64,000 nucleotides of DNA from positions 7,621 through 71,620 of the forward strand of contig JAHFJJ010000001.1 in assembly GCA_023245895.1 (NCBI GenBank), given 5' to 3'. Within the stretch, counting starts at the first letter, position 1, and the number at the start of each line of letters is the position of its first letter. The notes under the pieces are model-generated. The model was not told the DNA's origin and did no database searches. It saw only the letters and a list, made by a program, of their open reading frames with translations. This DNA is from Candidatus Doudnabacteria bacterium (GTDB taxonomy: Bacteria > Patescibacteriota > Doudnabacteria > UBA920). This document shows, piece by piece, positions 23,896 through 38,599 of this stretch. The translations under genes and the position numbers were made by a program.

Positions 23896-24241
23896 GGCAT
23901 CGACGAATTTGAGGATTACAAAAAATTATCTTTTTCTTCCTCAAAAATAAGCAAGGGATGTATTAACATCCAATGGTCCACTAAAGAAGATGCTGAATTC
24001 GTAGAACACATCGTATATCCTTTTAAAGTAGACATGAGACTCGAAACCTTCCAAAACCTATTCCAGCTTTTATCGGAGTAAGCATGCCTTTCACCAGACA
24101 CCTTTGGTCCGACTAGGCAAAATTAATAAACTCAGATCCTACGACGCAAGCGAGCGGTGGGTCCTGGGTTTTTTCTTTATTTTAACTCCCATTTGCCCAA
24201 CAAAAAATACTAGCTTTTCGCCAGCGTTTTTTAGTTTTGAT

Positions 24242-24637
24242 TTACGCTTGCTTTCTCGCAATATTTACCATCCACCTTATACCAAATTTGTCGCCCCAGG
24301 GAGCCGGTACCAAAGGCTGTTCTACTTTTCCGCCGGCAGACAGTTTATCCCAGTAACCTTGAAGTTCGACTTCTTCATCCCCGCTTAAAGAAATGGAAAT
24401 GTTGGTACCGGGCTTATATTCCCATTCTTTGGGAGTATCAGATGCCATAAGCGTTATTCCGTTATCCGCGACCAGCATGGCGTGCATAATTTTATTTTCT
24501 TCGCTTGGATCGTGCGGCATACCGCCTTCTTTAAAAGTACTCATGGTAAGCTTGCCGCCTAAAGCAGAACTATAAAACTCCATTACTTCCTTGGCTTTGC
24601 CGTCAAAATTTAAGTACGGGTTCAGTTTGTTGTTCAT
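24242..24637 (-). CDS. VOC-family protein of the PhnB type
   Basis: N-terminal PYLNFDGKAKEVMEFYSSALGG is the characteristic PhnB/3-demethylubiquinone-9 methyltransferase-like signature. Confidence 0.7.
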   Translation of the reverse strand: MNNKLNPYLNFDGKAKEVMEFYSSALGGKLTMSTFKEGGMPHDPSEENKIMHAMLVADNGITLMASDTPKEWEYKPGTNISISLSGDEEVELQGYWDKLSAGGKVEQPLVPAPWGDKFGIRWMVNIARKQA

Positions 24638-24702
24638 ATATTTTTATAATTAATTATTTTCTCTCATGATTATAACATATATTTAATAACAATAATAATA
24701 TA

Positions 24703-24731
24703 TTGACAAACGATAAATAGTAGTATACGAT
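24703..24731 (+). promoter_or_regulatory. Sigma-70-like promoter: TTGACA, 17 nt, TACGAT
   Basis: 32 nt upstream of the DUF2975 gene start at 24763. Confidence 0.4.
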
Positions 24732-24762
24732 ATTAATATCAAGAATTAAGCAATCAATCTTT

Positions 24763-25242
24763 ATGAAAAAAACCTCAACAATATTTCTTCAGGTAGTCAT
24801 TGTGGCTCTTGGCATTGTTGCGCTTGCCCTTTTGCTTTGGGAACCTCAAATCGAGGGCAGGAACGCGCATGCTACGCTCTTTGAGATTTACTTTAAAGAT
24901 CCATTTCTGGCTCTTGTCTACATAGGGTCTATTCCTTTTTTCATAGCACTCTACCAAGCATTCAAGTTGCTGGGGTACGTAAGGCAAAATAAGACATTCT
25001 CCCAGGCAACTGTAAAAGCTCTGCGTACTATAAAATATTGCGCGCTGGCTATAATTGGTTTTGTTGTGGTAGAAGAAATTTTTATTATGCTCAACCATGG
25101 TAGTGATGATCCTGCAGGCGGGGTTTTTATGGGTGTTCTCATTACCTTCGGTTCAATCGTCATTGCCACCGCGGCGGCGATGTTTCAACGGATTTTGCAA
25201 AATGCCGTGGAAATAAAATCGGAAAACGATTTAACAGTTTAG
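24763..25242 (+). CDS. DUF2975-family membrane protein, the partner of a YozG-like HTH regulator
   Basis: 159 aa with 4 TM helices. The typical pairing has a small XRE HTH gene immediately downstream. Confidence 0.6.
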   Translation: MKKTSTIFLQVVIVALGIVALALLLWEPQIEGRNAHATLFEIYFKDPFLALVYIGSIPFFIALYQAFKLLGYVRQNKTFSQATVKALRTIKYCALAIIGFVVVEEIFIMLNHGSDDPAGGVFMGVLITFGSIVIATAAAMFQRILQNAVEIKSENDLTV

Positions 25243-25248
25243 TAACAT

Positions 25249-25324
25249 GTCATTGCGAGGAGTGCAGCCGACGAAGCAATCTTATCTAAGGAAAAGATCG
25301 CTTCGGATGCACTCGCGATGACAT
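25249..25324. repeat. Palindromic element family B, the intergenic copy
   Basis: gtcattgcgaggagtgcagccgacgaagcaatcttatc...gatcgcttcggatgcactcgcgatgacat. Roughly 90 % identical to the copy inside cyoB. Confidence 0.75.
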
Positions 25325-25347
25325 GGAAGAGAATAATCAAAAATATT

Positions 25348-25551
25348 ATGGCAATAATAATAAATATAGATGTCATGCTGGCCAAAAGGAAAATGAGCGT
25401 CACCGAACTTACGGAAAAGGTCGGCATAACCATGGCCAACATTTCGATTTTAAAAAATGGCAAAGCAAAAGCCATCCGCTTTTCCACCCTGGAAGCAATT
25501 TGCAAAGCTTTAAATTGCCAACCTGGGGATATTTTAGAATTCAAAAGATAA
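25348..25551 (+). CDS. XRE-family HTH transcriptional regulator, YozG-like
   Basis: MAIIINIDVMLAKRKMSVTELTEKVGITMANISILKNGKAKAIRFSTLEAICKALNCQPGDILEF is a near-consensus YozG. I moved the start to ATG 25348, because the track start at 25318 lies inside the repeat. Confidence 0.8.
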   Translation: MAIIINIDVMLAKRKMSVTELTEKVGITMANISILKNGKAKAIRFSTLEAICKALNCQPGDILEFKR

Positions 25552-25602
25552 TTAAAAAACAGTGGGTTATCTACCCACTGTTTTTTAATCTCTGATGATT
25601 AT

Positions 25603-26484
25603 TTAGACAAATGATCCGGTTTTTACTTCTCCCGCTCTTTCGTAGTTGGCTACAATAACTCCGCTGGGTGTAACTTTGCTATCAGTTAATTTGAATGCGA
25701 CGGGAATTGTGCCTCCTGCCTGCCGCGTCCGGCCGGCTTTCCACTCACGTTTTAACCATTTTCGGCCAAATCCTGTCTTCAAATCATGCTCACGCTTTAC
25801 TGCCAGTTCACGAGTAATATACTCCTCATAATGGATTATCTCTATAGGCTTACGCAGTTTTGTGTGTTCAGCACCATAGCCGGCTGCATGCTGATTCCAA
25901 CGCTCTGATAGGTCTTGGGTTTGGCCAATATATATCGATCCATCATCACAGAGTATCGCATATACAAAAAATAGATTCGGCCGCGGCGCAGGCAGGTCGG
26001 CAAATAGGCGCTTACCCGAGCCTAAGGTTACAGGAAAAGTTTTTAGCAGTAATTCATCTACCAAATCGTGTTTCAAAAGCGTTTGGATGAGGTTAGCGCT
26101 GCCCCAGACTTTTAAGTCAGGCCCGTCTTGGGCTTTGAGTTTTTTAATTTCCTCTACAATGTCGTCTTTTATAATAATGGAGTTTTTCCAGTCAGCTTTT
26201 GTAAGCGTATTTGAAACTACATACTTGGTGGCTTCGTTAATGCCGGGCCAGCCTTCTTCGTGCTGTGGCCAATAGTTAGAAAATATGTCAAAAGTTTTTC
26301 TGCCCAGGAGCAAATCGGAAGGCTGTTTCATTTGCTCGCCCATTATTTTGCCGGCTACTTCATCAAAATAAGGAAAAGTCCAGCCGCCATACTTAAAGCC
26401 GCCCGAAGTATCTTCTTCCGGTCCGCCCGGCGCCTGCATTACGCCGTCTAAACTAATAAAACTAAGGACAATAATTTTTCTCAT
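25603..26484 (-). CDS. RibD_C/DHFR-like (YwjB-type) reductase-family protein with a GIY-YIG nuclease domain inserted in frame (aa 172-258)
   Basis: The N-terminal 171 aa (IIVLSFISLDGVMQAPGGPEED...GSGKRLF) and the C-terminal 35 aa (TIPVAFKLTDSKVTPSGVIVANYERA) together make a normal RibD C-terminal-domain protein. Between them sits a complete COG2827-type GIY-YIG domain (FFVYAILCDDGSIYIGQTQDLSERWNQHAAGYG...REHDLKTGFGRKWLKRE), encoded at about 25711-25971. Confidence 0.65.
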   Translation of the reverse strand: MRKIIVLSFISLDGVMQAPGGPEEDTSGGFKYGGWTFPYFDEVAGKIMGEQMKQPSDLLLGRKTFDIFSNYWPQHEEGWPGINEATKYVVSNTLTKADWKNSIIIKDDIVEEIKKLKAQDGPDLKVWGSANLIQTLLKHDLVDELLLKTFPVTLGSGKRLFADLPAPRPNLFFVYAILCDDGSIYIGQTQDLSERWNQHAAGYGAEHTKLRKPIEIIHYEEYITRELAVKREHDLKTGFGRKWLKREWKAGRTRQAGGTIPVAFKLTDSKVTPSGVIVANYERAGEVKTGSFV

Positions 26485-26721
26485 ATTTTCGCATTATTAA
26501 TTACGTTTAGACCCTCTATTGAACATTGCTTGGATTAATGGGCTTACTAATTTGTCTGTGAAAAAGGTATCAGGTATCTTTTCTTATTTAAGTTGGGCTG
26601 ACGGATGTTACTTTCCGGCCGCAAGGAGTATGCAGGCTTGGCCGGCGCGGGTTTTAGTGCCTGCCGATTGTTTGACTGAGTCTATCCAGGTAACAAAGTC
26701 CCAAAGTCGGGACTGACTGCT

Positions 26722-27063
26722 TTATTTAGTCCTGAACGGCCGTTGATTAACTTCTTTAAGGATTCTAAGTGTGGCGTGTACCGAGAGGTTATCGCTTGGT
26801 AAAAGTATTAGTTTATCGCCTAATTGGTTGAGCAGCCGGCTTAAAAACTCATCGGCCCAAGACGGCGACAGTGTTAATATGCCGGAAAAATCTATTTCCA
26901 GTTCTTCGTCTTTAGGTAGCCCCCGTAAAGTAGTTTGAAAAGCCTTAAAAGCCTCGCTGCCCAATTCACGCGATATTAAGGTTTTACCAAATTTTTCCAG
27001 TTGCAATTTCATAGTAAGTATTAAATTATTTCCATTTTTTAAAATTCTATTTTTGCCAAACAT
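26722..27063 (-). CDS. DUF4325/STAS-like small protein
   Basis: 113 aa, co-directional with the upstream GHKL ATPase gene and overlapping it by 25 nt. The SpoIIAA-like fold call is weak, made from pattern only. Confidence 0.4.
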   Translation of the reverse strand: MFGKNRILKNGNNLILTMKLQLEKFGKTLISRELGSEAFKAFQTTLRGLPKDEELEIDFSGILTLSPSWADEFLSRLLNQLGDKLILLPSDNLSVHATLRILKEVNQRPFRTK

Positions 27064-27758
27064 CCCCGTACAATGTTCTGCCCGCGTGTAACGCGAAATA
27101 GCTTATCTGTTCCTTGCATGCGCACCTCCGCGTCCCCGCTGGTAAAAAATAAGTCCAGCGGCTGCTCGATTACCACTTCACGGACAAGCTTAAGCCCGTT
27201 GCCGCGTTTTTCCGGCGCGCGTCCGGAGATGAATTCGGTAAACGCGACCTTCACCGCCTCAACATGGCTTGGAAGCTCAGGGCGAACTTGGCGCAAAGTT
27301 TCTAAAATACCCAAACCTCTGTCGGCAAGTACAACAATACCCTTAGCAAGATCGTAACCAAAAAAAATTCCTGCCGTGTCCGGCCATTTACCCAAGTTAT
27401 GGGCAAACGAATTATCGCCAATCTCTCCGGTAATTAAAGTAACCAAGGAATATAACTTTTCAAATCCAGGCTTTTGCATAAGTTCGTATTCCATTTTTGT
27501 GAGCCTTGCATTAAAAATGGAACTTGTTGGACAATAAAACACATTGGGAAACTCGACACCTTCCGAAATCCACTCGGAGGCAAATTTCATCATATCGCTG
27601 GCAAATATTTCTAAGTCTTTTTCTCGATAATAACGATGGCTGCCGCCGTCTTTTTTTATAGCTACCAATTTACCGCTCTCGTCCCAACGGCGTAGTGTAT
27701 TCAAAGAAACCCCAAGATATTGGGATGCCTGGCTAATTGTGAGTAATTTTTCTTCCAT
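27039..27758 (-). CDS. MerR/excisionase-type HTH fused to a GHKL (HATPase_c) ATPase domain
   Basis: N-terminal LTISQASQYLGVSLNTLRRWDESGKL is an HTH_17/MerR-like motif. The C-terminal half has the GHKL N-box and G-boxes (GEIGDNSFAHN; LADRGLGI; RGNGLKLV). Confidence 0.55.
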   Translation of the reverse strand: MEEKLLTISQASQYLGVSLNTLRRWDESGKLVAIKKDGGSHRYYREKDLEIFASDMMKFASEWISEGVEFPNVFYCPTSSIFNARLTKMEYELMQKPGFEKLYSLVTLITGEIGDNSFAHNLGKWPDTAGIFFGYDLAKGIVVLADRGLGILETLRQVRPELPSHVEAVKVAFTEFISGRAPEKRGNGLKLVREVVIEQPLDLFFTSGDAEVRMQGTDKLFRVTRGQNIVRGCLAKIEF

Positions 27759-27960
27759 ACAAACATACTATCACAATATTAAAATCTACACAAGTATAGT
27801 ATAAATCTACCCAAAAAGATGATAATCTACTCATTAATTAGCTAAAATACATACTAACCTAACATAATATTGAACATACATGTATACCGTATGTACATAT
27901 ATTATTCATAAAAATAAGGTAAAATTTGTTAAAACAATGAGGCAATGTCCCATTTTTATG

Positions 27961-28278
27961 TTATTTTTTAGATCGCCTATTAAGTGCCCATTGTACCGAA
28001 GGGCTCACAGACTTATCTGCGCGATGCATACAGCCCAGCCAGCAACACGGACGGCGCATGCCTTCTTTGAGTTCACTGACCACTCTTTTAACATGGTCCT
28101 TCCTGGTCTCTTCTTTCTTGACGAAGGTAGTCCAGCAAATCCACTCATTGCGAGCTAATGGAGTAATGTCCTGCCACAATGCCAAAGCTTTAGCATCGGA
28201 AGCCAGGGCTTTTTTTAAGTCCGTGGGCATTGTGTGCACTGTGCCAGAGGAGATTTTTTTAGTTAGTTTGGTATCCAT
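27961..28278 (-). CDS. YdeI/OmpD-associated family protein
   Basis: 105 aa with the pattern LARNEWICW...ETRKDHVKR typical of this family. Confidence 0.55.
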   Translation of the reverse strand: MDTKLTKKISSGTVHTMPTDLKKALASDAKALALWQDITPLARNEWICWTTFVKKEETRKDHVKRVVSELKEGMRRPCCWLGCMHRADKSVSPSVQWALNRRSKK

Positions 28279-28283
28279 TTATA

Positions 28284-28748
28284 TTACTGACTAATTAATA
28301 CTAATTTACCTTCTGGTTTAGTCCAGTCTGTCCACCGCCACCAAGTTGGAATAAAAACAAACTTCACATAATTTGGTCCGTGGGCCTTATCCTTCTTTTC
28401 AGGAAACTTCCCATGATAAATTTTTTCATACAAATCTGCTTCGTTACCTTTTATTAATCTTGCTATCCCATCCATTTGAAAAGTTTTCATATCTGCCTCA
28501 TTTGTCCCAATTACAACAGATGCCCTGGTTTCTTCCCTTCCGAAAAGGGCCTCGCTTTTCCTATAAGTTTTATTTGTCTCAAAGAAAAACATTAATGGAT
28601 TGTCCTGATGGGCAAAATGAACCGCGGCCGCGTGCGGTGAGCCGTCCATCATTTCTACTGACAACACGCAAACTCGCTGGGATTTAATATAATCAAGTAT
28701 TTCTCGGTTCATATAAAAATAAGCAGGGTTAGTTAAACCTAGAGCCAA
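28284..28748 (-). CDS. Pyridoxamine 5'-phosphate oxidase-like FMN-binding protein
   Basis: 154 aa in a split-barrel pattern (VCVLSVEMMDGSPHAAAVHFAH..., ...ETRASVVIG). Confidence 0.55.
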   Translation of the reverse strand: MALGLTNPAYFYMNREILDYIKSQRVCVLSVEMMDGSPHAAAVHFAHQDNPLMFFFETNKTYRKSEALFGREETRASVVIGTNEADMKTFQMDGIARLIKGNEADLYEKIYHGKFPEKKDKAHGPNYVKFVFIPTWWRWTDWTKPEGKLVLISQ

Positions 28749-28998
28749 AAAATAGAGCTGAGCACAAAATATTCATTATAAAAAACAAGGCCAGAATAAC
28801 CCATGGATTCTTTTGGGGAGTTGTATTTTTATAGACATAATAAATTATTAGCGTACCAATAATGGTGTATATAATCCAAGCCATTATTGCGGTAGGGATA
28901 GATAGGCTCTTGGTAGTTGCATCAAAAAGAAAAGACGTGGCTATTCCTAACATTACACTAACATAGTACATTCTTGAGCTGCTGCCTAAATTTGGCAT
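28729..28998 (-). CDS. Small membrane protein, 3 TM helices
   Basis: Hydrophobic 89 aa ORF overlapping the start of the upstream gene. Confidence 0.3.
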   Translation of the reverse strand: MPNLGSSSRMYYVSVMLGIATSFLFDATTKSLSIPTAIMAWIIYTIIGTLIIYYVYKNTTPQKNPWVILALFFIMNILCSALFFGSRFN

Positions 28999-29054
28999 AT
29001 TTTGTGATTTTACTTAATAAAAGAAGTAAAAGGGACCAAGAGCTTTTACTTTGC

Positions 29055-29462
29055 CTAATTATCTGAATTTTGGTTGATTCCTTTTTGGAGACTTAAAAAT
29101 TTTGTAACAATTTTATTTAACAACGGCCATTCCTTCCACTCTCCGGAGTTGGCTACCCTATTTATTCCTATAACTATTAAAAGCAGGACTGCGCTTATTA
29201 CGGTTTTAAAAATAAATAAAGGGCTGATAGAAACAACTTGATTGGCTATTTCGGTCCGAAAAATAAAGTAGACACCTATAAAAAATAAAATACCCGCTAC
29301 TAAATCAAAAAACTGTGAGAAAGGACGGTCTTTACTAACAACCCCATCTTCCGGTCTCCAGGCTGTATGACCAAAAGTATTACCTAACCAATATAACAAC
29401 AGGCTAATTGTTGCTGTGAGAATAAAAGGAATGAAAATAAAAAATTTAAACAACCTATTCAT
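29055..29462 (-). CDS. Membrane protein, 4 TM helices
   Basis: Hydrophobic 135 aa ORF. Confidence 0.35.
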   Translation of the reverse strand: MNRLFKFFIFIPFILTATISLLLYWLGNTFGHTAWRPEDGVVSKDRPFSQFFDLVAGILFFIGVYFIFRTEIANQVVSISPLFIFKTVISAVLLLIVIGINRVANSGEWKEWPLLNKIVTKFLSLQKGINQNSDN

Positions 29463-29469
29463 ATATTAC

Positions 29470-29970
29470 TTAAAAGTTTCCCTCGTCTGCCGAAGGCCCA
29501 TACAAGGAAGGGACGGGGAGGTTATTGAGCCTCATATATACGGTTAACTGGCCGCGGTGGTGGACCGAGTGGTTTATGGTGGAGCCGATAAAATCTTTAA
29601 TAGGCATGCTCATAAGCACTTTGCCGCCGGCTTTGAGCTCAAAGGGCTCTACTATGTCTTGGTCGGAAATATTTTGCAGGGCTTTTTTTGCTGCCTGCAT
29701 ATTTTCGTCAAAATGGTTAACCAAGTCCGCGGTTACTTTTAAGTCTATATGCTTCCAGGTGGCAAAATCTATTTCCCCGCCGCTGGCCATTGTGGCAATC
29801 CACTTGGGCACTTCCGCCACAAGCAACGCCAAATAACCCATAGCCATAGACTTTTCGTGCGGCTTATACTGGAACAAACTTTCCGGAATCCTCTCCAAAC
29901 ATTTCCTGCTGGCCGCTGCCTCTGCCTCCAGCTCTGCTAAAAACATTTGCCCTATTGTTGTATTATTCAT
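29470..29970 (-). CDS. DinB/YfiT-like (DinB_2) family protein, a paralog of 3816-4316
   Basis: HHRGQ motif. The C-terminal SLYGPSADE is almost identical to the other copy. 166 aa, the same length. Confidence 0.7.
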   Translation of the reverse strand: MNNTTIGQMFLAELEAEAAASRKCLERIPESLFQYKPHEKSMAMGYLALLVAEVPKWIATMASGGEIDFATWKHIDLKVTADLVNHFDENMQAAKKALQNISDQDIVEPFELKAGGKVLMSMPIKDFIGSTINHSVHHRGQLTVYMRLNNLPVPSLYGPSADEGNF

Positions 29971-29981
29971 GTTACCCCTTT

Positions 29982-30413
29982 CTATATATTATTTTTTTGA
30001 TGAATTTTTTTTCTATGCATATATACAGTTTTTATTAGCGAGGCCAGCACTTTCTCGTTTACATCGGAAAGGCGGTTTATGTACAGGCAGCCTCCGCCTC
30101 TTTTATGCTTTCCTAATTTAGCCAAAAGCGCCGGGTCTTCCTGCTTCCACGCCAAAATATAAAGAGTCAGGTTTTGCTTACGGGGTGAAAAACCCACCAA
30201 AAACCAGTCGCCCTCCTGCGCGCTTTTCTCGGATTTATAATGGTATTTCCCAAAGCCCACCATACTCGTCCCCCACATTACCGGTTTTTCGCCGGTAATT
30301 TTTTTAAAAAGTTTAAGCAATGTAAGGGCGTCTTTGCGCTTTTCGTCCGGCTTTATGGAGTTTATAAATTTTAAAACGCTCTCTTTGGTTGCCTTTGTTT
30401 TTAGTTCTGCCAT
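29982..30413 (-). CDS. DUF1801 (YdhG-like) family protein
   Basis: 143 aa with the pattern VLKFINSI...ALTLLKLFKKITGEKPVMWGTSMVGFGKYHYKS. Confidence 0.55.
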   Translation of the reverse strand: MAELKTKATKESVLKFINSIKPDEKRKDALTLLKLFKKITGEKPVMWGTSMVGFGKYHYKSEKSAQEGDWFLVGFSPRKQNLTLYILAWKQEDPALLAKLGKHKRGGGCLYINRLSDVNEKVLASLIKTVYMHRKKIHQKNNI

Positions 30414-30435
30414 AAAATTTGCTTTGTAAATTTTA

Positions 30436-30478
30436 CTCCGACCTGTTCCGACTGAAACGTCGGAACAGGTCGGAGTAA
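30436..30478. repeat. Perfect 19-bp-stem hairpin tactccgacctgttccgac-tgaaa-cgtcggaacaggtcggagta
   Basis: It lies between divergent genes. It is too long and GC-balanced for a simple terminator, so a recombination or operator site is possible. Confidence 0.5.
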
Positions 30479-31245
30479 GTACTAAATTTAATTATATAAT
30501 CATAATAACCCAAGGCGCTAGGCTTTGTCGAGGTCGCCTGCCTGCCTAACCCCCAGGATGCGCGGGAACACGTAAAATTTTCTATTATATACCTTTTGTG
30601 CTATACTCGTATTATGAAGAATAAAAAATATCTAGCTTTTGCAGGTTGTATGTTTTTGGGGATGGGCATAGGCGCTCTGTTGGGTGATACCGGCGCGGGC
30701 ACGCTCATTGGTATGGGCGCGGGCTTTCTTGCCAGTCTTTTCGTGAAATAGGAACGAACCCTTACTCATAAAACATTTGGAATGTAAAAACCACCATGAG
30801 CTTGTCGAATGGTGATTTTTGTTGGCTCAGCACTATAGAAAGCGTTGGAACTATTTGGAAAAGAAAATTAGACTTCTTTTGTCAGCTCCCATTTCCGATT
30901 ACGAACTGTATAAACTTTTTTCCATTGAACCCCAACTGCACCTTGGGGCGCCTCAACGTCGCCTTTATGATTATAATAGTCCTCAGTGCCTTTGCTTTCG
31001 TCGCGTCGCAAAATAACAGTATGTTGATCGCCTTCTTTTGAACCAAATCCGTCTTAGGATAACTCCCAGTTGAATACAGGCTCCTTTGCTGAACCTTGCC
31101 AGCCTGCTTCGGTTAAATAGTGATTTGTATCTAAACCGGAAAAATCGGGCGTTTCTTTTTCGTTCATATTTTTATAAAATAAATTTATTTAACTTTTTCT
31201 GCAACTTAATTATAGCATAAACAGGTCCGAGCTTCTACTTCCCCG

Positions 31246-31282
31246 AATTAAAATCCACCAATGTTTATTGGTGGATTTTAAT
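31246..31282. promoter_or_regulatory. 36-nt palindrome attaaaatccaccaat-gttt-attggtggattttaat upstream of the Fic-like gene
   Basis: A perfect 16-bp inverted repeat about 140 nt upstream of a TATAAT (31423-31428) and ATG 31442. Candidate operator or att-like site. Confidence 0.4.
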
Positions 31283-31441
31283 GGCTCCGAGCGGCACGAG
31301 AACTTAGAACCGTTATTTTAAGCGGATGGAAATCTTATAAAATGGACATGGCAGTAAAAATAATCAGAAAGGGTCTGTAAGCTTACTAGGCCAAGCCCCA
31401 ATTATGACCTTCCAATTAATTATTGCTATAATCGTATCAAT

Positions 31442-32530
31442 ATGATACGATATAAGTACTTAAATGATACGAAAATGACTACTATATCAACAAAACAGCA
31501 AACTATTATAGGTATCTTCCTTGAAAAAGGAGGTATACAATCATCCGATGTCTATGAAGAAGTCACCAAACTTGGAGAAAAAACTTCACTAGTAACGGTA
31601 AAAAGGATGCTGTCTGAAATGGCCAGTGAAGGTATTTTGGAAGTTTCCGGCTCCGGAAGGTCAACCGGCTATCATATTAGTCCTAAAGGTCGAGTGTTTG
31701 CCGAAATAAATTCCAAAGAATATATTTCTGCGGAACCTGATAAGCGGTTTGGCTTAAGCCGTTATAATTTTGACTTGTTGTCATCCATTCCCGAGGAGAT
31801 TTTTACAGATGAAGAATTAAAACGATTGAAAAACGCTACTATTGAATATGAAAAAAGAATAACGGACTTGCCAGCGGCAATCCAAAAAAAAGAAATGGAA
31901 CGGCTGATCATTGAGCTATCTTGGAAATCATCACGGATAGAAGGCAATACCTATACTCTCTTGGATACCGAGAAGTTGATTCTGGAAAACAAGGAAGCAC
32001 CTGGTCATAGTAAAAAAGAAGCGCAAATGATACTCAACCATAAAGATGCTTTTAACTACATTCACAAAAACTCCGCCCAATTTAAAACTTTGACCCGAAA
32101 AAATCTTGAAGAACTACACGCTATCTTGGTGAAAGATTTAAGTGTGGGACTGGGACTGCGAAAAAAACCGGTGGGAGTTACAGGTTCCAAATATTTACCC
32201 TTGGATAATATCCACCAGATTACAGAAGCAGTGGAAAACCTTTCGGCCACTGTAACGCGTATAACCACTCCTTATGCCAAGGCCTTGGTTGCCTTATTGG
32301 GTATTAGTTATATCCAACCGTTTGAAGACGGCAACAAAAGGACATCCCGGCTTATGGCTAATGCCTTACTTCTTTCCCATTCCCTTGCCCCGCTTTCGTA
32401 TAGGAGTGTTGATGAAAATGAATACCGCGAAGCCGTGTTGGTATTTTATGAATTGAATTCTCTTGTACCGATGAAAAAAATATTCATCAATCAATATGAG
32501 TTTGCTACCCAAAATTACGCGGTAAAATAA
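31442..32530 (+). CDS. Fic/Doc-family protein with a non-canonical motif (QPFEDGNKRTSR)
   Basis: N-terminal winged-helix-like region plus a Fic core. The motif position reads QPFEDGNKR. Canonical Fic is HPFx(D/E)GNGR and Doc is HxFx(D/N)(A/G)NKR, so it is Doc-like (NKR) with the catalytic His replaced by Gln. Confidence 0.7.
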   Translation: MIRYKYLNDTKMTTISTKQQTIIGIFLEKGGIQSSDVYEEVTKLGEKTSLVTVKRMLSEMASEGILEVSGSGRSTGYHISPKGRVFAEINSKEYISAEPDKRFGLSRYNFDLLSSIPEEIFTDEELKRLKNATIEYEKRITDLPAAIQKKEMERLIIELSWKSSRIEGNTYTLLDTEKLILENKEAPGHSKKEAQMILNHKDAFNYIHKNSAQFKTLTRKNLEELHAILVKDLSVGLGLRKKPVGVTGSKYLPLDNIHQITEAVENLSATVTRITTPYAKALVALLGISYIQPFEDGNKRTSRLMANALLLSHSLAPLSYRSVDENEYREAVLVFYELNSLVPMKKIFINQYEFATQNYAVK

Positions 32531-32531
32531 A

Positions 32532-34703
32532 TTAAATCTTTACAAGTTTGTTATAATAGCGTTTCCGCTGTTTAAATTGCCTTTCAAGAAAGGCGATTTT
32601 TTTGTCTTCGTAATCAATAATGGTTTTTTGGTTATTCTTGCCTCGCATGCGGCCAATATATTGGATTAGTTTTCCTTCAAAAGAAAATGGAAAAGCAATT
32701 ATCAAACAGTCAATGCTTGGGATGTCCAGCCCTTCACCAAAAAATTGGCCAGTTGAAAGAATTGCTTGGTAATGGCCGGTTTGGATTTGTTTCAGTTTGA
32801 TTGTTCGTTTGGCGTTGGAATCCTCACCTGATATGGTAATAGTTTCGCATAGGCCTTTGAGATAAAGACTTAAAATTTCCAAGTGATCACGTCGTTCCGA
32901 CAAAAACAAGACTTTTTTGCCTTGGCTGGTTTGTTCCTGAATGTCTTTGACTATCATCTGGTTGCGGTTAGTATCAAAACAAATAAGTTTGGCCAAGAGT
33001 TGAAAGTTGTCAGTGGTGAACTTGAAAGGAACTTCCAGGTTGGTTTCTCGGACAATGATTTGCGTGTTGACTGATTTGTAAGCTGCCGCAGCCGTTTCAG
33101 CTATTATTTCCAGTGCATACTCCATTTGGGCGATGATGTCTCCAATGAACATATAAATTAAGGGCTCATCGTTATGCTTCCGCTTGGGCGTAGCAGTAAG
33201 GCCATAAATGTATTTGGGATTAAGCTGGCTGATAACCTCGCGGAAAGTCTTGGCAGGAATATGGTGACATTCATCTACAATTATCGTACCGAATTTGTTT
33301 TGCAGTTCGGCAAAATTGCCAATTCGTACTAAAGTTTGCATCATGGCTATTGTAATTTCCTCGCCGGTCTTTTTCTTAACAGAATAGTATTGCCCAATGT
33401 CCTTTTTAGGAATTCCCAAAAACGATTGCGTACGTTCAACCCATTGGTCAAGCAATTGCTTGCGATGAACTAAAATTAAGGCCGGCAGTTTTCTTTTGGC
33501 GATAACCTCCAGACCTATTATAGTTTTGCCACTACCGGAAGGTGCGACAATAACGCCGCTATCAGCTTCCAAGGCCTTTGCTACAATCGGCTTCTGCTCA
33601 GGTAAGAGCTTAATGTTGCTCGTAAACTTTACCTCCGGTATTTGCGGTCGTTGGTCTTTAATTTGATAAGCAATTCGGTTATCATGCAAAAAAGAAATTA
33701 GCTGATTTAAAAATCCCCGCGGCAATAAAACATCATCGCCATCTTCCTCAAGCAATTTAAAGAACTTTTGGACTTTGTGAACGGATTTGCCTAACCGTTT
33801 CTTGGTTAAGTATTCCGTGCTAATAAAATTGAGCTTTTCTTTCAAAAAATGGATAAGCTGAGGGGTGAGCTCAGAGCGATTTAAAATAATTTTGCTGTTT
33901 AAAGTTAATCTGACCGATGAAACACCTAACGCTTCCGACACAAAGCTAACGGGCTTGTTAAATACGTTTGAATAAGCTGTTTCAAGTTCCACACCTGTGT
34001 GCTTATATATCGTTTGCAAAAAAGCCCATTGATCGGGATAGGGCTTAAAAGTTTCAGGATCTAAAAATAACGTATTGCTTAGCCGAACAGCTTGGCCTTG
34101 CAGAGGAATGGCAATAAGGTTACCAAACCCCTCTTTGGCTAAACTGTCTTGGTTTGGAAAAAGTCTGTCAAAGCTGACTTCCTTATCAAATTCCGAAAGT
34201 TTTAACACCCGGCGGATTATTTCCAAAATTATTTGTCGGCTCTTATAGCAAGGGTATGGGCTTCCAAAAAATATCCAAACATGCCCGCCGTTGCCTGAAC
34301 GGGATCGTTCAAGATAGGGGTGGAGGCCAACCTTTAGGCATTCGTCAATAAAATTTTTGCAATCCTGTTGCCAAGTACTGCCGTCAAAATCAGCGGCGAT
34401 AAAATACGAAGTATTATCTTGCAGAATTGGGTAAATACCAATAGCACTTGCACCAATTAAATGTTTTCTAACAATATCCGGTGTTAAGGGTATTAATTTT
34501 TTATCTTTAAAGTCCTTGAAGGCCCCACCCTTAAGTTTAAAATTATTGTAAGCTGTCCAATTGACGTCGTAAGCCGGACTATAGTTGCCTTGGCCATTCT
34601 TCTCCCAGTACTTGGCATACACATCTGTTCTGCCGCGAAAGAGCGACTGGTATAAATTCAGCTGTTCTTCAGTAATACTCTGTATCATATATTTAAATTC
34701 CAA
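32532..34703 (-). CDS. PrimPol (archaeo-eukaryotic primase-like) domain fused to an SF2 DExH helicase
   Basis: N-terminal AEP motifs: FIAADFDGSTW (the DxD motif) and SRSGNGGHVWIFF (sGxGxH). C-terminal helicase motifs: VIVAPSGSGKT (Walker A), IIVDECHH (motif II), GLTATP (III), LDIPSIDCLI (V) and QYIGRMRG (VI). 723 aa. Confidence 0.7.
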   Translation of the reverse strand: MEFKYMIQSITEEQLNLYQSLFRGRTDVYAKYWEKNGQGNYSPAYDVNWTAYNNFKLKGGAFKDFKDKKLIPLTPDIVRKHLIGASAIGIYPILQDNTSYFIAADFDGSTWQQDCKNFIDECLKVGLHPYLERSRSGNGGHVWIFFGSPYPCYKSRQIILEIIRRVLKLSEFDKEVSFDRLFPNQDSLAKEGFGNLIAIPLQGQAVRLSNTLFLDPETFKPYPDQWAFLQTIYKHTGVELETAYSNVFNKPVSFVSEALGVSSVRLTLNSKIILNRSELTPQLIHFLKEKLNFISTEYLTKKRLGKSVHKVQKFFKLLEEDGDDVLLPRGFLNQLISFLHDNRIAYQIKDQRPQIPEVKFTSNIKLLPEQKPIVAKALEADSGVIVAPSGSGKTIIGLEVIAKRKLPALILVHRKQLLDQWVERTQSFLGIPKKDIGQYYSVKKKTGEEITIAMMQTLVRIGNFAELQNKFGTIIVDECHHIPAKTFREVISQLNPKYIYGLTATPKRKHNDEPLIYMFIGDIIAQMEYALEIIAETAAAAYKSVNTQIIVRETNLEVPFKFTTDNFQLLAKLICFDTNRNQMIVKDIQEQTSQGKKVLFLSERRDHLEILSLYLKGLCETITISGEDSNAKRTIKLKQIQTGHYQAILSTGQFFGEGLDIPSIDCLIIAFPFSFEGKLIQYIGRMRGKNNQKTIIDYEDKKIAFLERQFKQRKRYYNKLVKI

Positions 34704-35556
34704 AACAATTTACGGCTTCATCCTTAAACCAATTTATAAATTGGGACATACTATCATGGGCTATTAAATCTTTGGCGTCGAAAGTAAAGAGTTGTCCGTA
34801 CCTAGAGAAATAAATTGCAAGTTTGTTTACCTCGCATTTGCCAGGGGTATCCCCAATGCCACCAATTTTATGCAGTAAATAATAACCGGCTAACTGATGA
34901 AGCATTGGTCTGTCAAATTTTAAGTATTTCGTTGTTTTGATGTCAATCAGGATATCGTCGACGAGCAAATCAGCATCCGCGCCGCCGACTAAATTAGAAG
35001 CATGTCCAAAAGTAGGATTAAGCAAACATATGTTTTTTGCGGCAAATATCTCTGGCTTAACCAAATGGATTAAATTTTCAAGATCGGTTACATCTCCCTG
35101 ATCAACAACGCCAAAGTTCCGATCAAGTCGGCCTTCCCTATAAATTTTATCAAGCTGGGCAAGGAGGATGGCGCTCTTAATGATTCCTTTTGTAATCTGG
35201 CCTGATTTAAGATAATCAGCATAAAGTTGTTTGGCCTCATTTAGAATTGCCAATCCTTTATTGTAAGTTTTTTCATACCAAGAGCGACCAAAAATGGAAT
35301 ATGATGTTCCCCATCCAAAGGTTTCGGGAATCTGCTTTACTGCCTGTTCGGCAACCCAGGTTTTAATTATAGCGTTTGGGTTTAAGCGCTTTAAATAGAA
35401 CCGCAGCAGATAATCAAAAGCCGTGCCGACCAGCATATAGTTTTGGGTAAGCGGAGGGGCTAGCAAAGCAGTTTGACAATTGAAATCCGGCAACATGAAT
35501 GTTTCCTGAAATTTTTCCCGCACCTGCTTTACTTTAATGAATGAAGTAAGGCTCAT
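34693..35556 (-). CDS. PD-(D/E)xK nuclease-like hypothetical protein, upstream of and overlapping the PrimPol-helicase
   Basis: GGADADLLVDDILIDIKTTKY fits the D...(D/E)xK restriction-endonuclease-fold motif. Weakly supported. Confidence 0.4.
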   Translation of the reverse strand: MSLTSFIKVKQVREKFQETFMLPDFNCQTALLAPPLTQNYMLVGTAFDYLLRFYLKRLNPNAIIKTWVAEQAVKQIPETFGWGTSYSIFGRSWYEKTYNKGLAILNEAKQLYADYLKSGQITKGIIKSAILLAQLDKIYREGRLDRNFGVVDQGDVTDLENLIHLVKPEIFAAKNICLLNPTFGHASNLVGGADADLLVDDILIDIKTTKYLKFDRPMLHQLAGYYLLHKIGGIGDTPGKCEVNKLAIYFSRYGQLFTFDAKDLIAHDSMSQFINWFKDEAVNCFGI

Positions 35557-35718
35557 TAAGGTATTTTAGCCTAAATAAAGCGGTTTATGCAAAAGGCCCA
35601 TTCCGCTATTTTTTGTTTTTTTATACAGGGTTTATTTTTTGTGGTATAATAAAAGCACTTAGTTTGCCTGAGCAAAACAAAACCAAAAATTTAATCTGCT
35701 TAAGCCACACTCTTCTAT

Positions 35719-35907
35719 ATGGAACCCCTAAGAGAAAATTTTTTAAAGACTTACGCCAATACCCCTATTAACTTGCGAGGAGATATAATTTTGGTTTTGG
35801 ATAAATTGGGACCGGTTAGTTGGAACGCGGCCTATATTGAAGTTGAACAAAAGTCAGAAATATCGGAAACAATTTTAAAAGAACTTAAGGCCCTGGATTT
35901 AATTTAA
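35719..35907 (+). CDS. Small hypothetical protein, 62 aa
   Basis: ORF only. Confidence 0.25.
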   Translation: MEPLRENFLKTYANTPINLRGDIILVLDKLGPVSWNAAYIEVEQKSEISETILKELKALDLI

Positions 35908-35911
35908 AACT

Positions 35912-36160
35912 ATGCAAAAAGAAACTCAAGAAAACTTGAAAAAAGAACGCGAGTTAGTTATAGCGCGTTTAGAAGTTATGTCGCCGGAATTGCATTTTTC
36001 CAGCGGTCATAGTTTTCAAAATTTCTCCAGGGACGAAATTATTGCCCAAATTAAGGAAGGTACCAATGTTGGAGCAGAGTTTGTTAAAACAGAAATGGAA
36101 TTCTTAAGAGCCTTAAAAGACGGTAAGTTACTAAAAAGTTTAATACCTGATCAAACATAG
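35912..36160 (+). CDS. Small hypothetical protein, 82 aa
   Basis: ORF only, in a tightly spaced co-directional series. Confidence 0.25.
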   Translation: MQKETQENLKKERELVIARLEVMSPELHFSSGHSFQNFSRDEIIAQIKEGTNVGAEFVKTEMEFLRALKDGKLLKSLIPDQT

Positions 36161-36814: not shown

Positions 36815-36838
36815 TTTAACTCATTTCAAAACAGGCTC

Positions 36839-38257: not shown

Positions 38258-38290
38258 CAGTCGATTGCTCTACCGTTGAGCTACTCCCGA
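38216..38290 (-). tRNA. tRNA-Asn (anticodon GTT), CCA encoded
   Basis: The cloverleaf reads out by hand: acceptor tcgggag/ctcccga, D-arm gctc-aacggta-gagc, anticodon stem atcga/tcgat with loop ctGTTaa, T-arm ctggg-ttcgaat-cccag, discriminator G then CCA. 75 nt. Confidence 0.85.
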
Positions 38291-38538: not shown

Positions 38539-38599
38539 TCCGCCGGAGGCGGACCAGCCTCTGGCTGGGATTGCTCTACCGTTGAGCTACTCCCGAATA
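38539..38599. repeat. Palindrome ccgccggaggcggaccagcctctggctgg, followed by a 31-nt duplicate of the tRNA-Asn 5' half
   Basis: 38569-38599 (gattgctctaccgttgagctactcccgaata) is identical to 38263-38293, which covers tRNA nt 1-28 plus 3 flanking nt. The GIY-YIG gene lies between the two copies. Confidence 0.75.

What the first reader, a model, noticed from the sequence alone, without database searches (positions are those of the whole stretch)
26722..27758. MerR-HTH::GHKL ATPase fusion co-transcribed with a DUF4325/STAS-like protein
A MerR/excisionase-type HTH is fused to a histidine-kinase-like (Bergerat fold) ATPase domain. The gene is translationally coupled to a small STAS-like protein. This looks like a partner-switching-type or anti-sigma-like module wired directly to DNA binding. 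It sits at the edge of the accessory region, next to an AT-rich stretch with a palindrome (27880-27930) that may be its operator. Such HTH-GHKL plus small partner pairs are poorly characterised and may act as phage-triggered switches.
Basis: inference. Interest (0 to 1): 0.5.

Follow-up and report, generated by a model that had tools for sequence, protein, structure and literature searches.

The report
Self-regulated DNA-binding kinase with STAS partner
This is a real, highly conserved two-gene operon: a DNA-binding protein fused to an anti-sigma-type serine-kinase domain, plus a small STAS-fold partner, apparently switching its own promoter through three direct repeats; it is an uncharacterised architecture of the kinase/STAS regulator family described in 2026 (CapK/CapS).

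Summary

**The two genes**
- Gene A (27039-27758, minus strand, 239 aa) is a BldC/Xis-like MerR-type HTH fused to a GHKL domain. That domain's best structural matches are the anti-sigma serine kinases SpoIIAB and RsbW.
- Gene B is a 96-aa DUF4325/STAS protein. It starts at 27012, not 27063, so it lies 26 nt after A rather than overlapping it.
- B follows A in 86 of 87 loci examined. The one exception is cut at a contig end.

**The operator**
It is three direct repeats, TGNNTAGWTT, at 27783-27833.
- The repeats sit 20-21 nt apart. The proximal one overlaps the -35 region of a leaderless, extended -10 promoter.
- Residue 20 of the HTH co-varies with the repeat sequence.

**Relation to known systems**
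- Profile comparison links A and B to CapK and CapS (EMBO J 2026). B S51 aligns with the CapS phosphoserine.
- A lacks CapK's internal STAS domain, B lacks CapS's wHTH, and no effector gene is conserved next to the pair.

**Evolution and setting**
- The pair is under very strong purifying selection (dN/dS about 0.03-0.05, synonymous sites saturated).
- It occurs in at least 523 species-level genomes. Of the 79 loci fetched, most are labelled CPR.
- In this window it sits in a low-GC island of what looks like a non-CPR host.

**Verdict**
- It is a new variant of a known kind.
- The signal it senses and its output beyond self-regulation are unknown.

The parts
27039..27758 (-). Gene A, 239 aa: HTH-GHKL fusion protein (includes the stop codon)
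   Evidence: ORF. There are 4320 homologues; the top 120 are full length and 84-91% identical. AlphaFold model has pLDDT 86.
27600..27758 (-). A residues 1-53: BldC/Xis-like MerR-type HTH. The recognition helix starts at N20.
27042..27599 (-). A residues 54-239: conserved helical extension (W63, F74-Y75-C76, F82, R85) followed by a GHKL (Bergerat-fold) kinase/ATPase domain with N, G1 and G2 boxes
26722..27012 (-). Gene B, 96 aa: DUF4325 STAS-fold protein (includes the stop codon). The candidate phospho-acceptor is S51, in the motif S49-P50-S51-W52.
   Evidence: Homologues are 96-97 aa. Pfam DUF4325 at 26 bits. The model is a STAS fold. S51 is invariant in 80 of 80 sequences and aligns with CapS S54.
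27013..27038 (-). 26-nt A/T-rich spacer between A and B, without a Shine-Dalgarno sequence
   Evidence: Across 81 loci the median spacer is 18 nt and only 5 have an SD-like sequence.
27783..27792 (-). Operator repeat R3, TGTGTAGATT (-34 to -25 from the ATG). Overlaps the -35-like TTGTGT.
27804..27813 (-). Operator repeat R2, TGGGTAGATT (-55 to -46)
27824..27833 (-). Operator repeat R1, TGAGTAGATT (-75 to -66)
27765..27773 (-). Extended -10 promoter element TGA-TAGTAT. It ends 6 nt before the ATG, which implies a leaderless mRNA.
   Evidence: Read directly from the sequence. The element TGnTAnnAT is conserved at the same place across loci. The tool's stricter consensus scan did not call it.
26690..26714 (-). 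Hairpin AGTCCC-GACTTT-GGGACT followed by TTGTTAC, just after B's stop: a weak terminator-like element
   Evidence: Read from the sequence. It is below the tool's T-run threshold and is not conserved in other loci.

Best explanation
This is a self-contained, autoregulated kinase/STAS switch.

**The proposed mechanism**
- Protein A binds, through its BldC/Xis-like HTH, three phased direct repeats (TGNNTAGWTT, 20-21 nt apart, so on one face of the helix).
- The proximal repeat covers the -35/spacer region of the operon's own leaderless, extended -10 promoter. Bound A therefore most likely represses transcription of A and B.
- A's C-terminal domain is an anti-sigma-type GHKL serine kinase with an intact ATP site.
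- B is its STAS-fold partner and substrate. It docks on the kinase domain as SpoIIAA docks on SpoIIAB and is phosphorylated on S51, at the start of helix alpha-2 (the CapS S54 position).
- Whether B is bound, free or phosphorylated changes how A multimerises on the repeats, and so changes expression.

**How it compares with CapK/CapS**
- It is a minimal relative in which the DNA-binding role sits on the kinase rather than on the STAS protein.

**Shown here**
- The folds and catalytic motifs.
- Obligate pairing of the two genes.
- The operator and its co-variation with the recognition helix.
- The promoter geometry.
- Very strong purifying selection.

**Inferred, not shown**
- Kinase activity and the phospho-acceptor residue.
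- The direction of regulation (repression).
- The signal: ATP/ADP ratio, or ssDNA as for CapK.
- Any output beyond autoregulation.
For: **Folds and motifs**
- The N, G1 and G2 boxes are invariant. 21 of 46 relatives give weak HATPase_c_2 hits.

**Pairing**
- A and B are adjacent in 86 of 87 loci, and their identities to the window proteins rise and fall together: A 50-89%, B 46-88%.
- An HTH-less paralogue is also followed by a DUF4325 gene.

**Operator**
- TGNGTAGATT occurs 3 times in the 64 kb window, all at 27783-27833, against 0.33 expected.
- All 78 loci with enough upstream sequence have at least 2 repeats, and 54 have at least 3. Spacing is 20 or 21 nt in 123 of 139 adjacent pairs. Background is 0.045 matches per 130 nt.
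- HTH residue 20 tracks the repeat: N with TGnGTAG (30 of 30), D with TGCATAG (37), M with TGTATAG (7). This is the alignment column with the highest mutual information (0.82 bit). It also holds among proteins at least 80% identical to the window protein.
- BldC is known to bind direct repeats head to tail (PMC5859096).

**Link to CapK/CapS**
- hhalign of the B profile against CapS: E 7.5e-5, ungapped, with S51 aligned to the CapS phosphoserine S54.
- hhalign of the A profile against CapK: E 4.7e-5, with N116 aligned to the catalytic N218.
- The CapK/CapS mechanism is taken from PMC13373217.

**Conserved residues and selection**
- B S51 is invariant; S49 is S or T throughout.
- dN/dS is about 0.03-0.05 with saturated synonymous sites, and GC3 tracks the GC content of the host locus.
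Against: - No biochemical data exist for this family.
- The window protein itself gets no GHKL hit in Pfam or NCBIfam. A profile of the domain finds nothing among PDB sequences. The GHKL assignment therefore rests on motifs, a predicted fold and weak hits in relatives.
- hhalign probabilities against single CapK and CapS sequences are only 62-68%.
- No PP2C phosphatase was among the 25 commonest Pfam families of the 146 nearest neighbours, so nothing in the cassette would reset the switch.
- A switch that controls only itself has no evident benefit, so an output is missing from the model.
- S49 rather than S51 could be the acceptor.
- A bound at -34 to -25 could in principle activate rather than repress.
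- The A:B complex could not be modelled with the tools available.
Confidence: 0.55

Rival explanations
1. A CapK/CapS-style 'controller of adjacent pathway'. The pair exists to regulate whatever cargo operon lies downstream (immune or stress genes), by read-through or by further operator sites. Autoregulation is only part of the circuit.
For: - A and B are homologous to CapK and CapS. CapK/CapS precede diverse immune operons and often follow restriction-modification systems (PMC13373217).
- The next ORF downstream is co-directional in 60 of 79 loci, and 19 of them start within 60 nt.
- There is no conserved terminator after B.
- Restriction-modification, AbiE, Fic and RadC genes recur nearby.
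- In the window, Fic and a TOTE-type system lie 4-7 kb away.
Against: - The tightly linked downstream genes are heterogeneous and often housekeeping: EF-P, cytidylyltransferase, HIT, matrixin and others.
- Among the 146 nearest neighbours, the commonest Pfam family (Fic) appears only 5 times.
- The upstream gene is co-directional just as often (56 of 75), so co-orientation carries little information.
- The operator motif occurs nowhere else in the 64 kb window.
- In the window B is followed by a hairpin and a 237-nt gap.
Confidence: 0.2
2. A toxin-antitoxin or abortive-infection-like module related to VapKSC. One partner is growth-inhibitory (for example, the kinase acting on host proteins) and the other neutralises it. 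The HTH provides the autoregulation typical of such modules.
For: - It is a two-gene, tightly autoregulated cassette found in variable genomic contexts.
- The relatives VapK/VapS work with a VapC toxin and protect against a phage (PMC13373217).
- A group of PIN toxins is coupled to DUF4325 genes (PMC5499597).
- A DUF4325 gene lies between the CI repressor and integrase genes of a Francisella prophage (PMC7924643).
- Several cassettes can occur in one genome or locus.
Against: - Neither protein has a recognisable toxin domain, and no PIN gene was seen next to the pair in the loci examined.
- PADLOC gives no hit for the GHKL domain or for B.
- The very strong purifying selection, together with codon composition (GC3) matching the host locus, is unlike fast-evolving conflict genes.
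- An HTH-less paralogue pair sits between def and fmt, next to rpsP and trmD.
- Relatives are almost absent from viral contigs.
Confidence: 0.12
3. A classical anti-sigma / anti-anti-sigma partner switch. A's kinase domain sequesters a sigma factor encoded elsewhere, and B releases it. The HTH only tunes expression.
For: The best structural matches are SpoIIAB, RsbW and UsfX for A, and SpoIIAA, RsbV and RsbS for B. The very high conservation would fit contact with a conserved host protein such as a sigma factor.
Against: - No sigma-70 family or PP2C/SpoIIE family appeared among the 25 commonest Pfam families of the 146 nearest neighbours, and none was noticed in the recurrent clusters of 949 neighbour ORFs.
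- The closest sequence relatives, CapK/CapS and VapK/VapS, act without sigma factors.
- The fused HTH and its co-evolving operator are integral to most members.
Confidence: 0.08
4. Not a kinase. The GHKL domain is an ATP-driven clamp or switch (MutL/MORC/Hsp90-like) that remodels the DNA-bound complex, and B is a non-phosphorylated regulatory subunit.
Against: - The domain is small and has no transducer domain.
- B keeps an invariant Ser at the known phospho-acceptor position.
Confidence: 0.05

Closest known systems
CapK / CapS (Chambers et al., EMBO J 2026, PMC13373217)
   Same: - A GHKL anti-sigma-type kinase carrying an N-terminal HTH, encoded immediately upstream of a STAS-fold substrate.
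- Shared kinase motifs (E..GN...H, DxGxGI, RGxGLK) and the STAS 'FG..L..RE' and Ser-aromatic motifs, seen when the CapK/CapS sequences are set beside the alignment consensus; hhalign E about 5e-5 for both proteins.
- B S51 aligns with the CapS phosphoserine S54.
- The promoter is autoregulated.
- Both are often found near restriction-modification and other conflict genes.
   Different: - CapK is HTH-STAS-GHKL (368 aa). A is 239 aa with no internal STAS domain, so the CapK ssDNA groove between the STAS and GHKL domains has no counterpart.
- CapS carries the wHTH and is the repressor, binding palindromes. B is STAS-only (96 aa). Here DNA binding is on the kinase, through a BldC-like HTH that reads direct repeats.
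- CapK's own HTH had no detectable role in the paper's assays.
- No conserved downstream operon is present here.
VapK / VapS / VapC toxin-antitoxin defence system (same paper)
   Same: A CapK-like GHKL kinase plus a small STAS protein with an absolutely conserved Ser/Thr (VapS S48). A group of VapC-type PIN toxins (PIN.4) is reported as transcriptionally coupled to DUF4325 genes (PMC5499597).
   Different: - No PIN/VapC gene is adjacent here.
- VapK has a STAS domain and no HTH.
- VapS has a C-terminal inhibitory helix (residues 94-116) that B is too short to carry.
SpoIIAB/SpoIIAA and RsbW/RsbV partner-switching modules
   Same: These are the best structural matches for both proteins. They share the kinase/STAS substrate logic and a Ser at the start of STAS helix alpha-2.
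   Different: No sigma factor and no PP2C phosphatase is linked to the pair. The kinase is fused to a DNA-binding domain. Sequence similarity is below Pfam thresholds for the window protein.
SiaB/SiaC (Pseudomonas aeruginosa)
   Different: The SiaABCD system includes a PP2C phosphatase and a diguanylate cyclase as output (my own knowledge). Neither is linked here.
BldC (Streptomyces) and Xis-type excisionase HTH proteins
   Different: BldC is a 68-residue stand-alone protein. Here the repeats are two helical turns apart and the HTH is tethered to a kinase domain, which presumably supplies the protein-protein contacts.

Membership tests
GHKL (Bergerat-fold) ATPase/kinase superfamily | N-box (E...N...H), G1 box (DxGxG) and G2 box (Gly-rich) that form the ATP/Mg site | tested here: met
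   E112, N116, H120, D146, G148, G150, G186 and G188 are invariant in 48 diverse relatives and in 46 C-terminal-domain or HTH-less relatives.
GHKL (Bergerat-fold) ATPase/kinase superfamily | Alpha/beta sandwich fold | tested here: met
Anti-sigma-factor serine kinases (Pfam HATPase_c_2; SpoIIAB/RsbW) | Significant match to the family profile | tested here: inconclusive
   The window protein gives no hit at E up to 1. 21 of 46 relatives give weak hits, the best at 6e-4. A profile of the domain finds nothing among PDB sequences.
Anti-sigma-factor serine kinases (Pfam HATPase_c_2; SpoIIAB/RsbW) | A cognate sigma factor and PP2C phosphatase in the same locus or regulon | tested here: not met
   Neither appears among the 25 commonest Pfam families of the 146 nearest neighbours, and neither was noticed in the recurrent clusters of 949 neighbour ORFs. 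Genes elsewhere in the genomes were not examined.
Anti-sigma-factor serine kinases (Pfam HATPase_c_2; SpoIIAB/RsbW) | ATP-dependent phosphorylation of the STAS partner | not testable with these tools
   Needs a biochemical assay.
STAS fold / Pfam DUF4325 | Profile match above the curated cut-off, and a STAS fold | tested here: met
STAS fold / Pfam DUF4325 | Conserved Ser/Thr at the N-terminus of helix alpha-2 (the phospho-acceptor in SpoIIAA, RsbV, CapS and VapS) | tested here: met
   S51 is invariant in 80 of 80 sequences; S49 is S in 77 and T in 3. The helix spans residues 50-67. S51 aligns with CapS S54.
CapK/CapS | CapK architecture HTH-STAS-GHKL | tested here: not met
   A has only helices between the HTH (1-53) and the GHKL sandwich, with no strands before residue 131. 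hhalign aligns only A 106-217 with CapK 208-336.
CapK/CapS | CapS architecture STAS-wHTH, with CapS as the DNA-binding repressor | tested here: not met
   B is 96 aa and consists of the STAS fold only.
CapK/CapS | Followed by a regulated immune or stress operon | tested here: not met
   No conserved downstream gene was found; the downstream genes are heterogeneous.
CapK/CapS | Sequence homology of the kinase and STAS domains | tested here: inconclusive
   hhalign E 4.7e-5 (probability 68%) and E 7.5e-5 (probability 62%) against single sequences. The catalytic Asn and the phospho-Ser are in register.
VapKSC | Adjacent VapC (PIN) toxin, and a VapS C-terminal inhibitory helix | tested here: not met
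   No PIN family appears in the neighbour census. B ends about 7 residues after its last helix.
Classical MerR regulators | HTH followed by a coiled-coil dimerisation helix and an effector-binding domain; a palindromic operator inside a long promoter spacer | tested here: not met
   Only the HTH part matches. The operator is direct repeats upstream of, and over, the -35 region.
BldC/Xis-like HTH proteins | MerR-like winged HTH without a dimerisation helix, binding direct repeats | tested here: met
MADS defence system (mad1) | mad1 together with the other mad genes | tested here: inconclusive
   PADLOC mad1 at 1.5e-13 covers only the HTH, aa 1-53. Three of the 146 nearest neighbours hit mad2. 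No complete system was looked for.

The most novel reading that the evidence does not exclude
The pair is a portable partner switch that works without a sigma factor. In it the kinase is itself the DNA-bound regulator. It senses a universal intracellular cue, either energy charge (as RsbW and SpoIIAB sense ATP/ADP) or ssDNA (as CapK does). The free or phosphorylated STAS protein then acts on a highly conserved host component. That would explain near-ribosomal-protein levels of conservation in a patchily distributed accessory cassette. It would also make this a major, so far unrecognised regulatory device of CPR/Patescibacteria that has crossed into other phyla.
Probability: 0.25. Interest if true: 0.7.

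Novelty: new variant of a known kind. Interest (0 to 1): 0.55.

Why it matters
- **A third architecture.** GHKL-kinase/STAS pairs were shown only in 2026 to control immune operons and a toxin (CapK/CapS and VapK/VapS/VapC). This cassette has the DNA-binding domain on the kinase, a bare STAS partner and no linked effector.
- **Wide and conserved.** It occurs in at least 523 species-level genomes; of the 79 fetched, most are labelled as CPR lineages, whose regulation is almost unstudied. It is far more conserved than expected for an accessory gene.
- **Experimentally tractable.** The operator and the single recognition-helix residue that tracks it give a ready-made, testable protein-DNA specificity code. 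The pair is about 1.1 kb and could be reconstituted in E. coli.
- **What it could answer.** Working out its signal and output would show how far the partner-switching principle extends beyond sigma factors. It would also show whether this pair is a stress sensor, a defence controller or an addiction module.

Tried and rejected
1. **Palindrome at 27880-27930 as operator: rejected.** Upstream sequences of 80 loci share nothing beyond about -85.
2. **Direct family assignment of the C-terminal domain: no result.** Pfam, NCBIfam and PADLOC gave no hit. phmmer and a profile against PDB sequences found only the HTH or nothing.
3. **A conserved third gene or effector: none.** The largest cluster among 949 neighbour ORFs is present in 7 of about 80 loci, on either side of the pair.
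4. **Recent horizontal spread as the reason for 85-90% identity across lineages: rejected.** Synonymous sites are saturated (pS 0.65-0.8) and GC3 follows the GC content of each host locus.
5. **Phage-borne element: not supported.** There is 1 relative among 2.9 million viral contigs.
6. **Conserved intrinsic terminator after B: none.** Median folding z-score is -0.27.
7. **The tool's sigma-70 consensus scan does not call the promoter.** The promoter proposal rests on the conserved TGnTAnnAT element and its fixed distance to the repeats and the ATG.
8. **Finding CapS or VapS structures by searching with B.**
   - The profile search of PDB sequences found nothing significant.
   - phmmer gave 9z71_A, a structure listed in that paper's supplement, at only E 0.66.
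9. **Other dead ends.** The afdb50 fold library was unavailable. The host organism could not be named. A model of the A:B complex could not be run.
Full report
**1. What is in the sequence**

Gene A (27039-27758, 239 aa) starts with a clear helix-turn-helix at residues 5-52: Pfam HTH_17 4e-11, MerR_1 8e-10, MerR 2e-8, and TIGR01764 'excisionase'. PADLOC's mad1 hit (1.5e-13) covers only this HTH.

Gene B hits Pfam DUF4325, 'STAS-like domain', above the curated cut-off (26.0 vs 23 bits). Homologues of B are 96-97 aa.

The genes do not overlap. They are separated by a 26-nt A/T-rich spacer with no Shine-Dalgarno sequence. This is the general pattern: median spacer 18 nt, and only 5 of 81 loci have an SD-like sequence.

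**2. Is the C-terminal domain a GHKL domain?**

No family library recognises residues 55-239 of the window protein. Sequence searches of the PDB find only the HTH.

A whole-library phmmer search with residues 60-239 found a small family: 297 clusters at E of 1e-3 or better. About half carry the N-terminal HTH. The others are about 190-200 aa and lack it.

In alignments of diverse members the invariant residues are exactly the Bergerat-fold signature:
- E112, N116, H120 and N121 in 'GEIGNNSFDHN' (N-box);
- D146, G148 and G150 in 'ADRGQGI' (G1);
- R185, G186, G188, L189 and K190 in 'RGNGLK' (G2).

Scanned one by one, 21 of 46 relatives give weak HATPase_c_2 hits and 15 give HATPase_c hits.

**3. 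Gene B**

Across 80 distinct B sequences the motif D41-F42-x-G44-V-x-T47-x-S49-P50-S51-W52-x-D54-E55-F56 is essentially invariant:
- S51 is Ser in 80 of 80;
- S49 is Ser in 77 and Thr in 3.

Helix alpha-2 begins at residue 50. These serines therefore sit where the phospho-serine of anti-sigma antagonists sits.

**4. Do the genes go together?**

Yes. I examined 87 loci:
- 8 were fetched by exact protein look-up in metagenome and genome assemblies;
- 79 came from species-representative genomes.

B lies 3-57 nt downstream of A in 86 of them. The exception (L060) is cut at the contig end. The two proteins' identities to the window proteins rise and fall together: A 50-89%, B 46-88%.

An HTH-less paralogue (P0259, 194 aa) is also followed by a DUF4325 gene. 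There the pair lies between def and fmt, next to rpsP and trmD.

**5. The operator and promoter**

I aligned the upstream regions of about 80 loci. Conservation ends about 85 nt before the ATG.

Inside that block are direct repeats of TGNNTAGWTT.
- In the window they are TGAGTAGATT (27824-27833), TGGGTAGATT (27804-27813) and TGTGTAGATT (27783-27792).
- These are the only three matches to TGNGTAGATT in 64 kb, against 0.33 expected.
- All 78 loci with enough upstream sequence have at least 2 copies, and 54 have at least 3.
- Spacing is 20 or 21 nt in 123 of 139 adjacent pairs.
- The usual positions are -34/-35, -55/-56 and -75/-76.
- The background rate is 0.045 matches per 130 nt.

The proximal repeat overlaps a -35-like TTGTGT. 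Seventeen nt downstream lies a conserved extended -10 element, TGnTAnnAT (window 27765-27773). It ends 6 nt before the ATG, which implies a leaderless transcript. This is read from the sequence and from conservation; the tool's stricter consensus scan does not call it.

The repeat sequence co-varies with the first residue of the recognition helix, residue 20:
- N20 goes with TGnGTAG (30 of 30);
- D20 goes with TGCATAG (37);
- M20 goes with TGTATAG (7).

This column has the highest mutual information in the alignment (0.82 bit). The rule also holds among proteins at least 80% identical to the window protein: L012, L013, L028, L029, L035 and L039-L041 have D20 and TGCATAG. This is strong comparative evidence that A's HTH reads these repeats, so the operon is autoregulated.

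BldC, the closest solved HTH, binds direct repeats head to tail (PMC5859096). Here the repeats are two helical turns apart, so contacts between bound copies would have to run through the kinase domains. That last point is inference.

**6. Genomic context**

No third gene is conserved. Among 949 neighbour ORFs the largest cluster occurs in 7 of about 80 loci, on either side of the pair.

From the cluster sequences, the precomputed Pfam tags and the census, the recurrent neighbours appear to be GIY-YIG, NYN, DNA methylases, AbiEi/AbiEii, RadC, Fic/RhuM, HsdR/HsdS, PIF1-like helicases and MazG-like proteins.

A census of the 146 nearest neighbours gives Fic 5 times and everything else at most twice. 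It includes dnaK, rpoB and aminoacyl-tRNA synthetases. Sigma-70 and PP2C families are not among the 25 commonest.

Downstream ORFs that follow B within 60 nt are heterogeneous: EF-P, cytidylyltransferase, a C39-like peptidase, HIT, PD-(D/E)XK, DUF3800, APH and matrixin. No terminator is conserved after B. The window itself has a weak hairpin at 26690-26714.

**7. Evolution**

The top 120 homologues of A, and likewise of B, are 83-91% identical to the window proteins. They come from MAGs labelled Taylorbacteria, Falkowbacteria, Komeilibacteria, Peregrinibacteria, Nomurabacteria, Uhrbacteria, Doudnabacteria and others.

This is not recent spread.
- Synonymous sites are saturated (pS 0.65-0.8) while pN is 0.07-0.10, giving dN/dS of about 0.03-0.05.
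- GC3 of the gene follows the GC content of each host locus, for example 0.15 where the locus is 0.32 GC and 0.55 where it is 0.47.

The pair is long-resident and under unusually strong constraint for a patchily distributed gene.

Divergent subfamilies with different operator specificities can coexist.
- L014 and L074 come from one MAG and carry N20 with TGnGTAG and D20 with TGCATAG/TGCCTAG respectively.
- L050 and L056 carry a second B-like gene or a second whole cassette about 5 kb away.

**8. The window's host and island**

The window also encodes cyoB (962 bits), purB, ppsA, a 770-aa GGDEF-EAL protein and a Tet-like MFS pump. To my knowledge this gene content is atypical for CPR bacteria. 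Depositors label two other loci Gammaproteobacteria (L024, L025).

The cassette lies in a low-GC stretch: 24-38 kb at 0.39-0.41 GC, against 0.45-0.49 in the flanks. That stretch also holds:
- Fic (31442-32530);
- a TOTE-type AEP primase-helicase (32532-34703, PF22548 3e-77);
- a large serine recombinase without a detected resolvase domain (36839-38257), abutting tRNA-Asn.

The neighbouring DUF2975 + HTH_26 pair and the OmdA gene have 57-80% identical relatives next to the cassette in L023 and L063. So 'accessory region' is right, and the cassette here was probably acquired with other cargo. I could not name the host.

**9. Comparison with what is known**

A full-text search found the directly relevant paper: Chambers et al., EMBO J 2026 (PMC13373217).
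- CapK is HTH-STAS-GHKL. CapS is STAS-wHTH. They sit upstream of immune operons.
- ssDNA activates CapK, which phosphorylates CapS S54. This breaks the CapS dimer and de-represses transcription.
- A related trio, VapK (STAS-GHKL), VapS (STAS plus a C-terminal helix, conserved S48) and VapC (PIN), is a phage-protective toxin-antitoxin system.
- An older survey noted a PIN group coupled to DUF4325 genes (PMC5499597).

I took the CapK and CapS sequences from the paper's source data and ran profile comparisons.
- The B profile aligns with CapS residues 19-78 without gaps (E 7.5e-5, probability 62%). This puts B S51 on CapS S54.
- The A profile aligns residues 106-217 with CapK 208-336 (E 4.7e-5, probability 68%). 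This puts N116 on the catalytic N218.

The family relationship is therefore probable, but membership fails on architecture:
- A has no internal STAS domain, so it lacks the ssDNA groove described for CapK.
- B has no wHTH and no VapS-like tail.
- There is no conserved downstream operon or PIN toxin.

The DNA-binding role has moved from the STAS protein to the kinase, and it uses a different HTH type reading direct repeats. Only three papers in the searchable library mention DUF4325. A literature search found no paper that pairs Patescibacteria with these terms.

**10. Most likely mechanism, and confidence**

I put about 0.85 on the structural and regulatory skeleton. That skeleton is an HTH-GHKL protein with a STAS partner, encoded in one operon, with the HTH binding three phased direct repeats over its own promoter.

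I put about 0.45-0.55 on the functional cycle: A autorepresses, B docks on the kinase domain and is phosphorylated on S51, and B's state changes A's occupancy of the operator.

The signal is unknown. ATP/ADP, as for RsbW and SpoIIAB, and ssDNA, as for CapK, are the obvious candidates. The output beyond autoregulation is also unknown. That is the main gap, because a circuit controlling only itself has no evident benefit.

The rivals are: a CapK/CapS-like controller of variable adjacent cargo (0.2), a toxin-antitoxin-like module (0.12), a classical anti-sigma switch acting on a distant sigma factor (0.08), and a non-kinase ATPase clamp (0.05).

**11. Verdict**

It is a new architectural variant of a recently defined kind of regulator. 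It is widespread and extremely conserved, has a decodable operator, and has no known function. Interest is moderate to fairly high (0.55).

Noticed in passing
window 1-64000 (cyoB 6073-8136; purB 2341-3723; GGDEF-EAL 40168-42480; ppsA 58896-61361): The window's gene content (cytochrome o oxidase subunit I, PEP synthase, GGDEF-EAL protein, Tet-like MFS pump) looks unlike a CPR genome. Yet the cassette's named relatives are mostly from CPR MAGs at 84-91% identity. This implies transfer between phyla at some point. The host could not be named.
   Followed up: partly
window about 24000-38300: A low-GC island (0.39-0.41 against 0.45-0.49 in the flanks) contains the cassette. It also holds Fic (31442-32530), a TOTE-type AEP primase-helicase (32532-34703) with a 287-aa partner ORF (34693-35556), and a large serine recombinase lacking a detectable resolvase domain (36839-38257) that abuts tRNA-Asn (38216-38290).
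   Followed up: partly
window 38569-38599: A 31-nt exact copy of the 5' part of tRNA-Asn lies about 300 nt beyond the gene. It may be a remnant of an integration event or a degraded second tRNA.
   Followed up: no
window 25603-26484 (minus strand): A 293-aa protein in which a GIY-YIG nuclease domain (aa 173-239) follows a RibD_C (dihydrofolate-reductase-like) match (aa 2-168), with about 55 further residues after it. From the sequence it looks like an insertion into the RibD_C domain. Small stand-alone GIY-YIG genes are also among the most recurrent neighbours of the cassette in other loci.
   Followed up: no
window 26836-26838 (B residue 59): The window's B protein has Arg at position 59, where 77 of 80 homologues have Pro, in an otherwise nearly invariant stretch (DEFL-S/T-P-L).
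   Followed up: no
L089 4001-4873: An HTH-less paralogue of A (194 aa) with its own DUF4325 partner (87 aa) sits between def and fmt, next to rpsP, a KH-domain (KhpA-type) gene and trmD. This is a housekeeping context, not an island.
   Followed up: partly
L014 and L074 (same MAG); L056 2021-3073 and 7018-8070; L050 193-459: More than one cassette can occur per genome or per locus. One MAG has two subfamilies with different operator and residue-20 specificities. L056 has two equally scoring full copies 5 kb apart, which could be a duplication or an assembly repeat. L050 has a second, divergent B-like gene 6 kb upstream.
   Followed up: partly
spacer before B in about 80 loci (window 27013-27038): B almost never has a Shine-Dalgarno sequence. 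In many of the loci inspected the spacer ends in an A-rich '...AAAAATAT' just before the ATG, and A itself appears leaderless. Both genes may therefore use non-canonical translation initiation.
   Followed up: partly
nearest neighbours of the cassette in 77 loci (alignment A6): Three of the 146 nearest-neighbour ORFs hit PADLOC mad2, while A's HTH hits mad1. Whether the MADS regulator genes are related to this cassette was not examined.
   Followed up: no
window 24763-25551 and 27961-28278; L023, L063: The DUF2975 + HTH_26 gene pair and the OmdA gene that flank the cassette in the window have 57-80% identical relatives next to the cassette in two other MAG loci. This suggests a larger block of cargo that travels together.
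   Followed up: no
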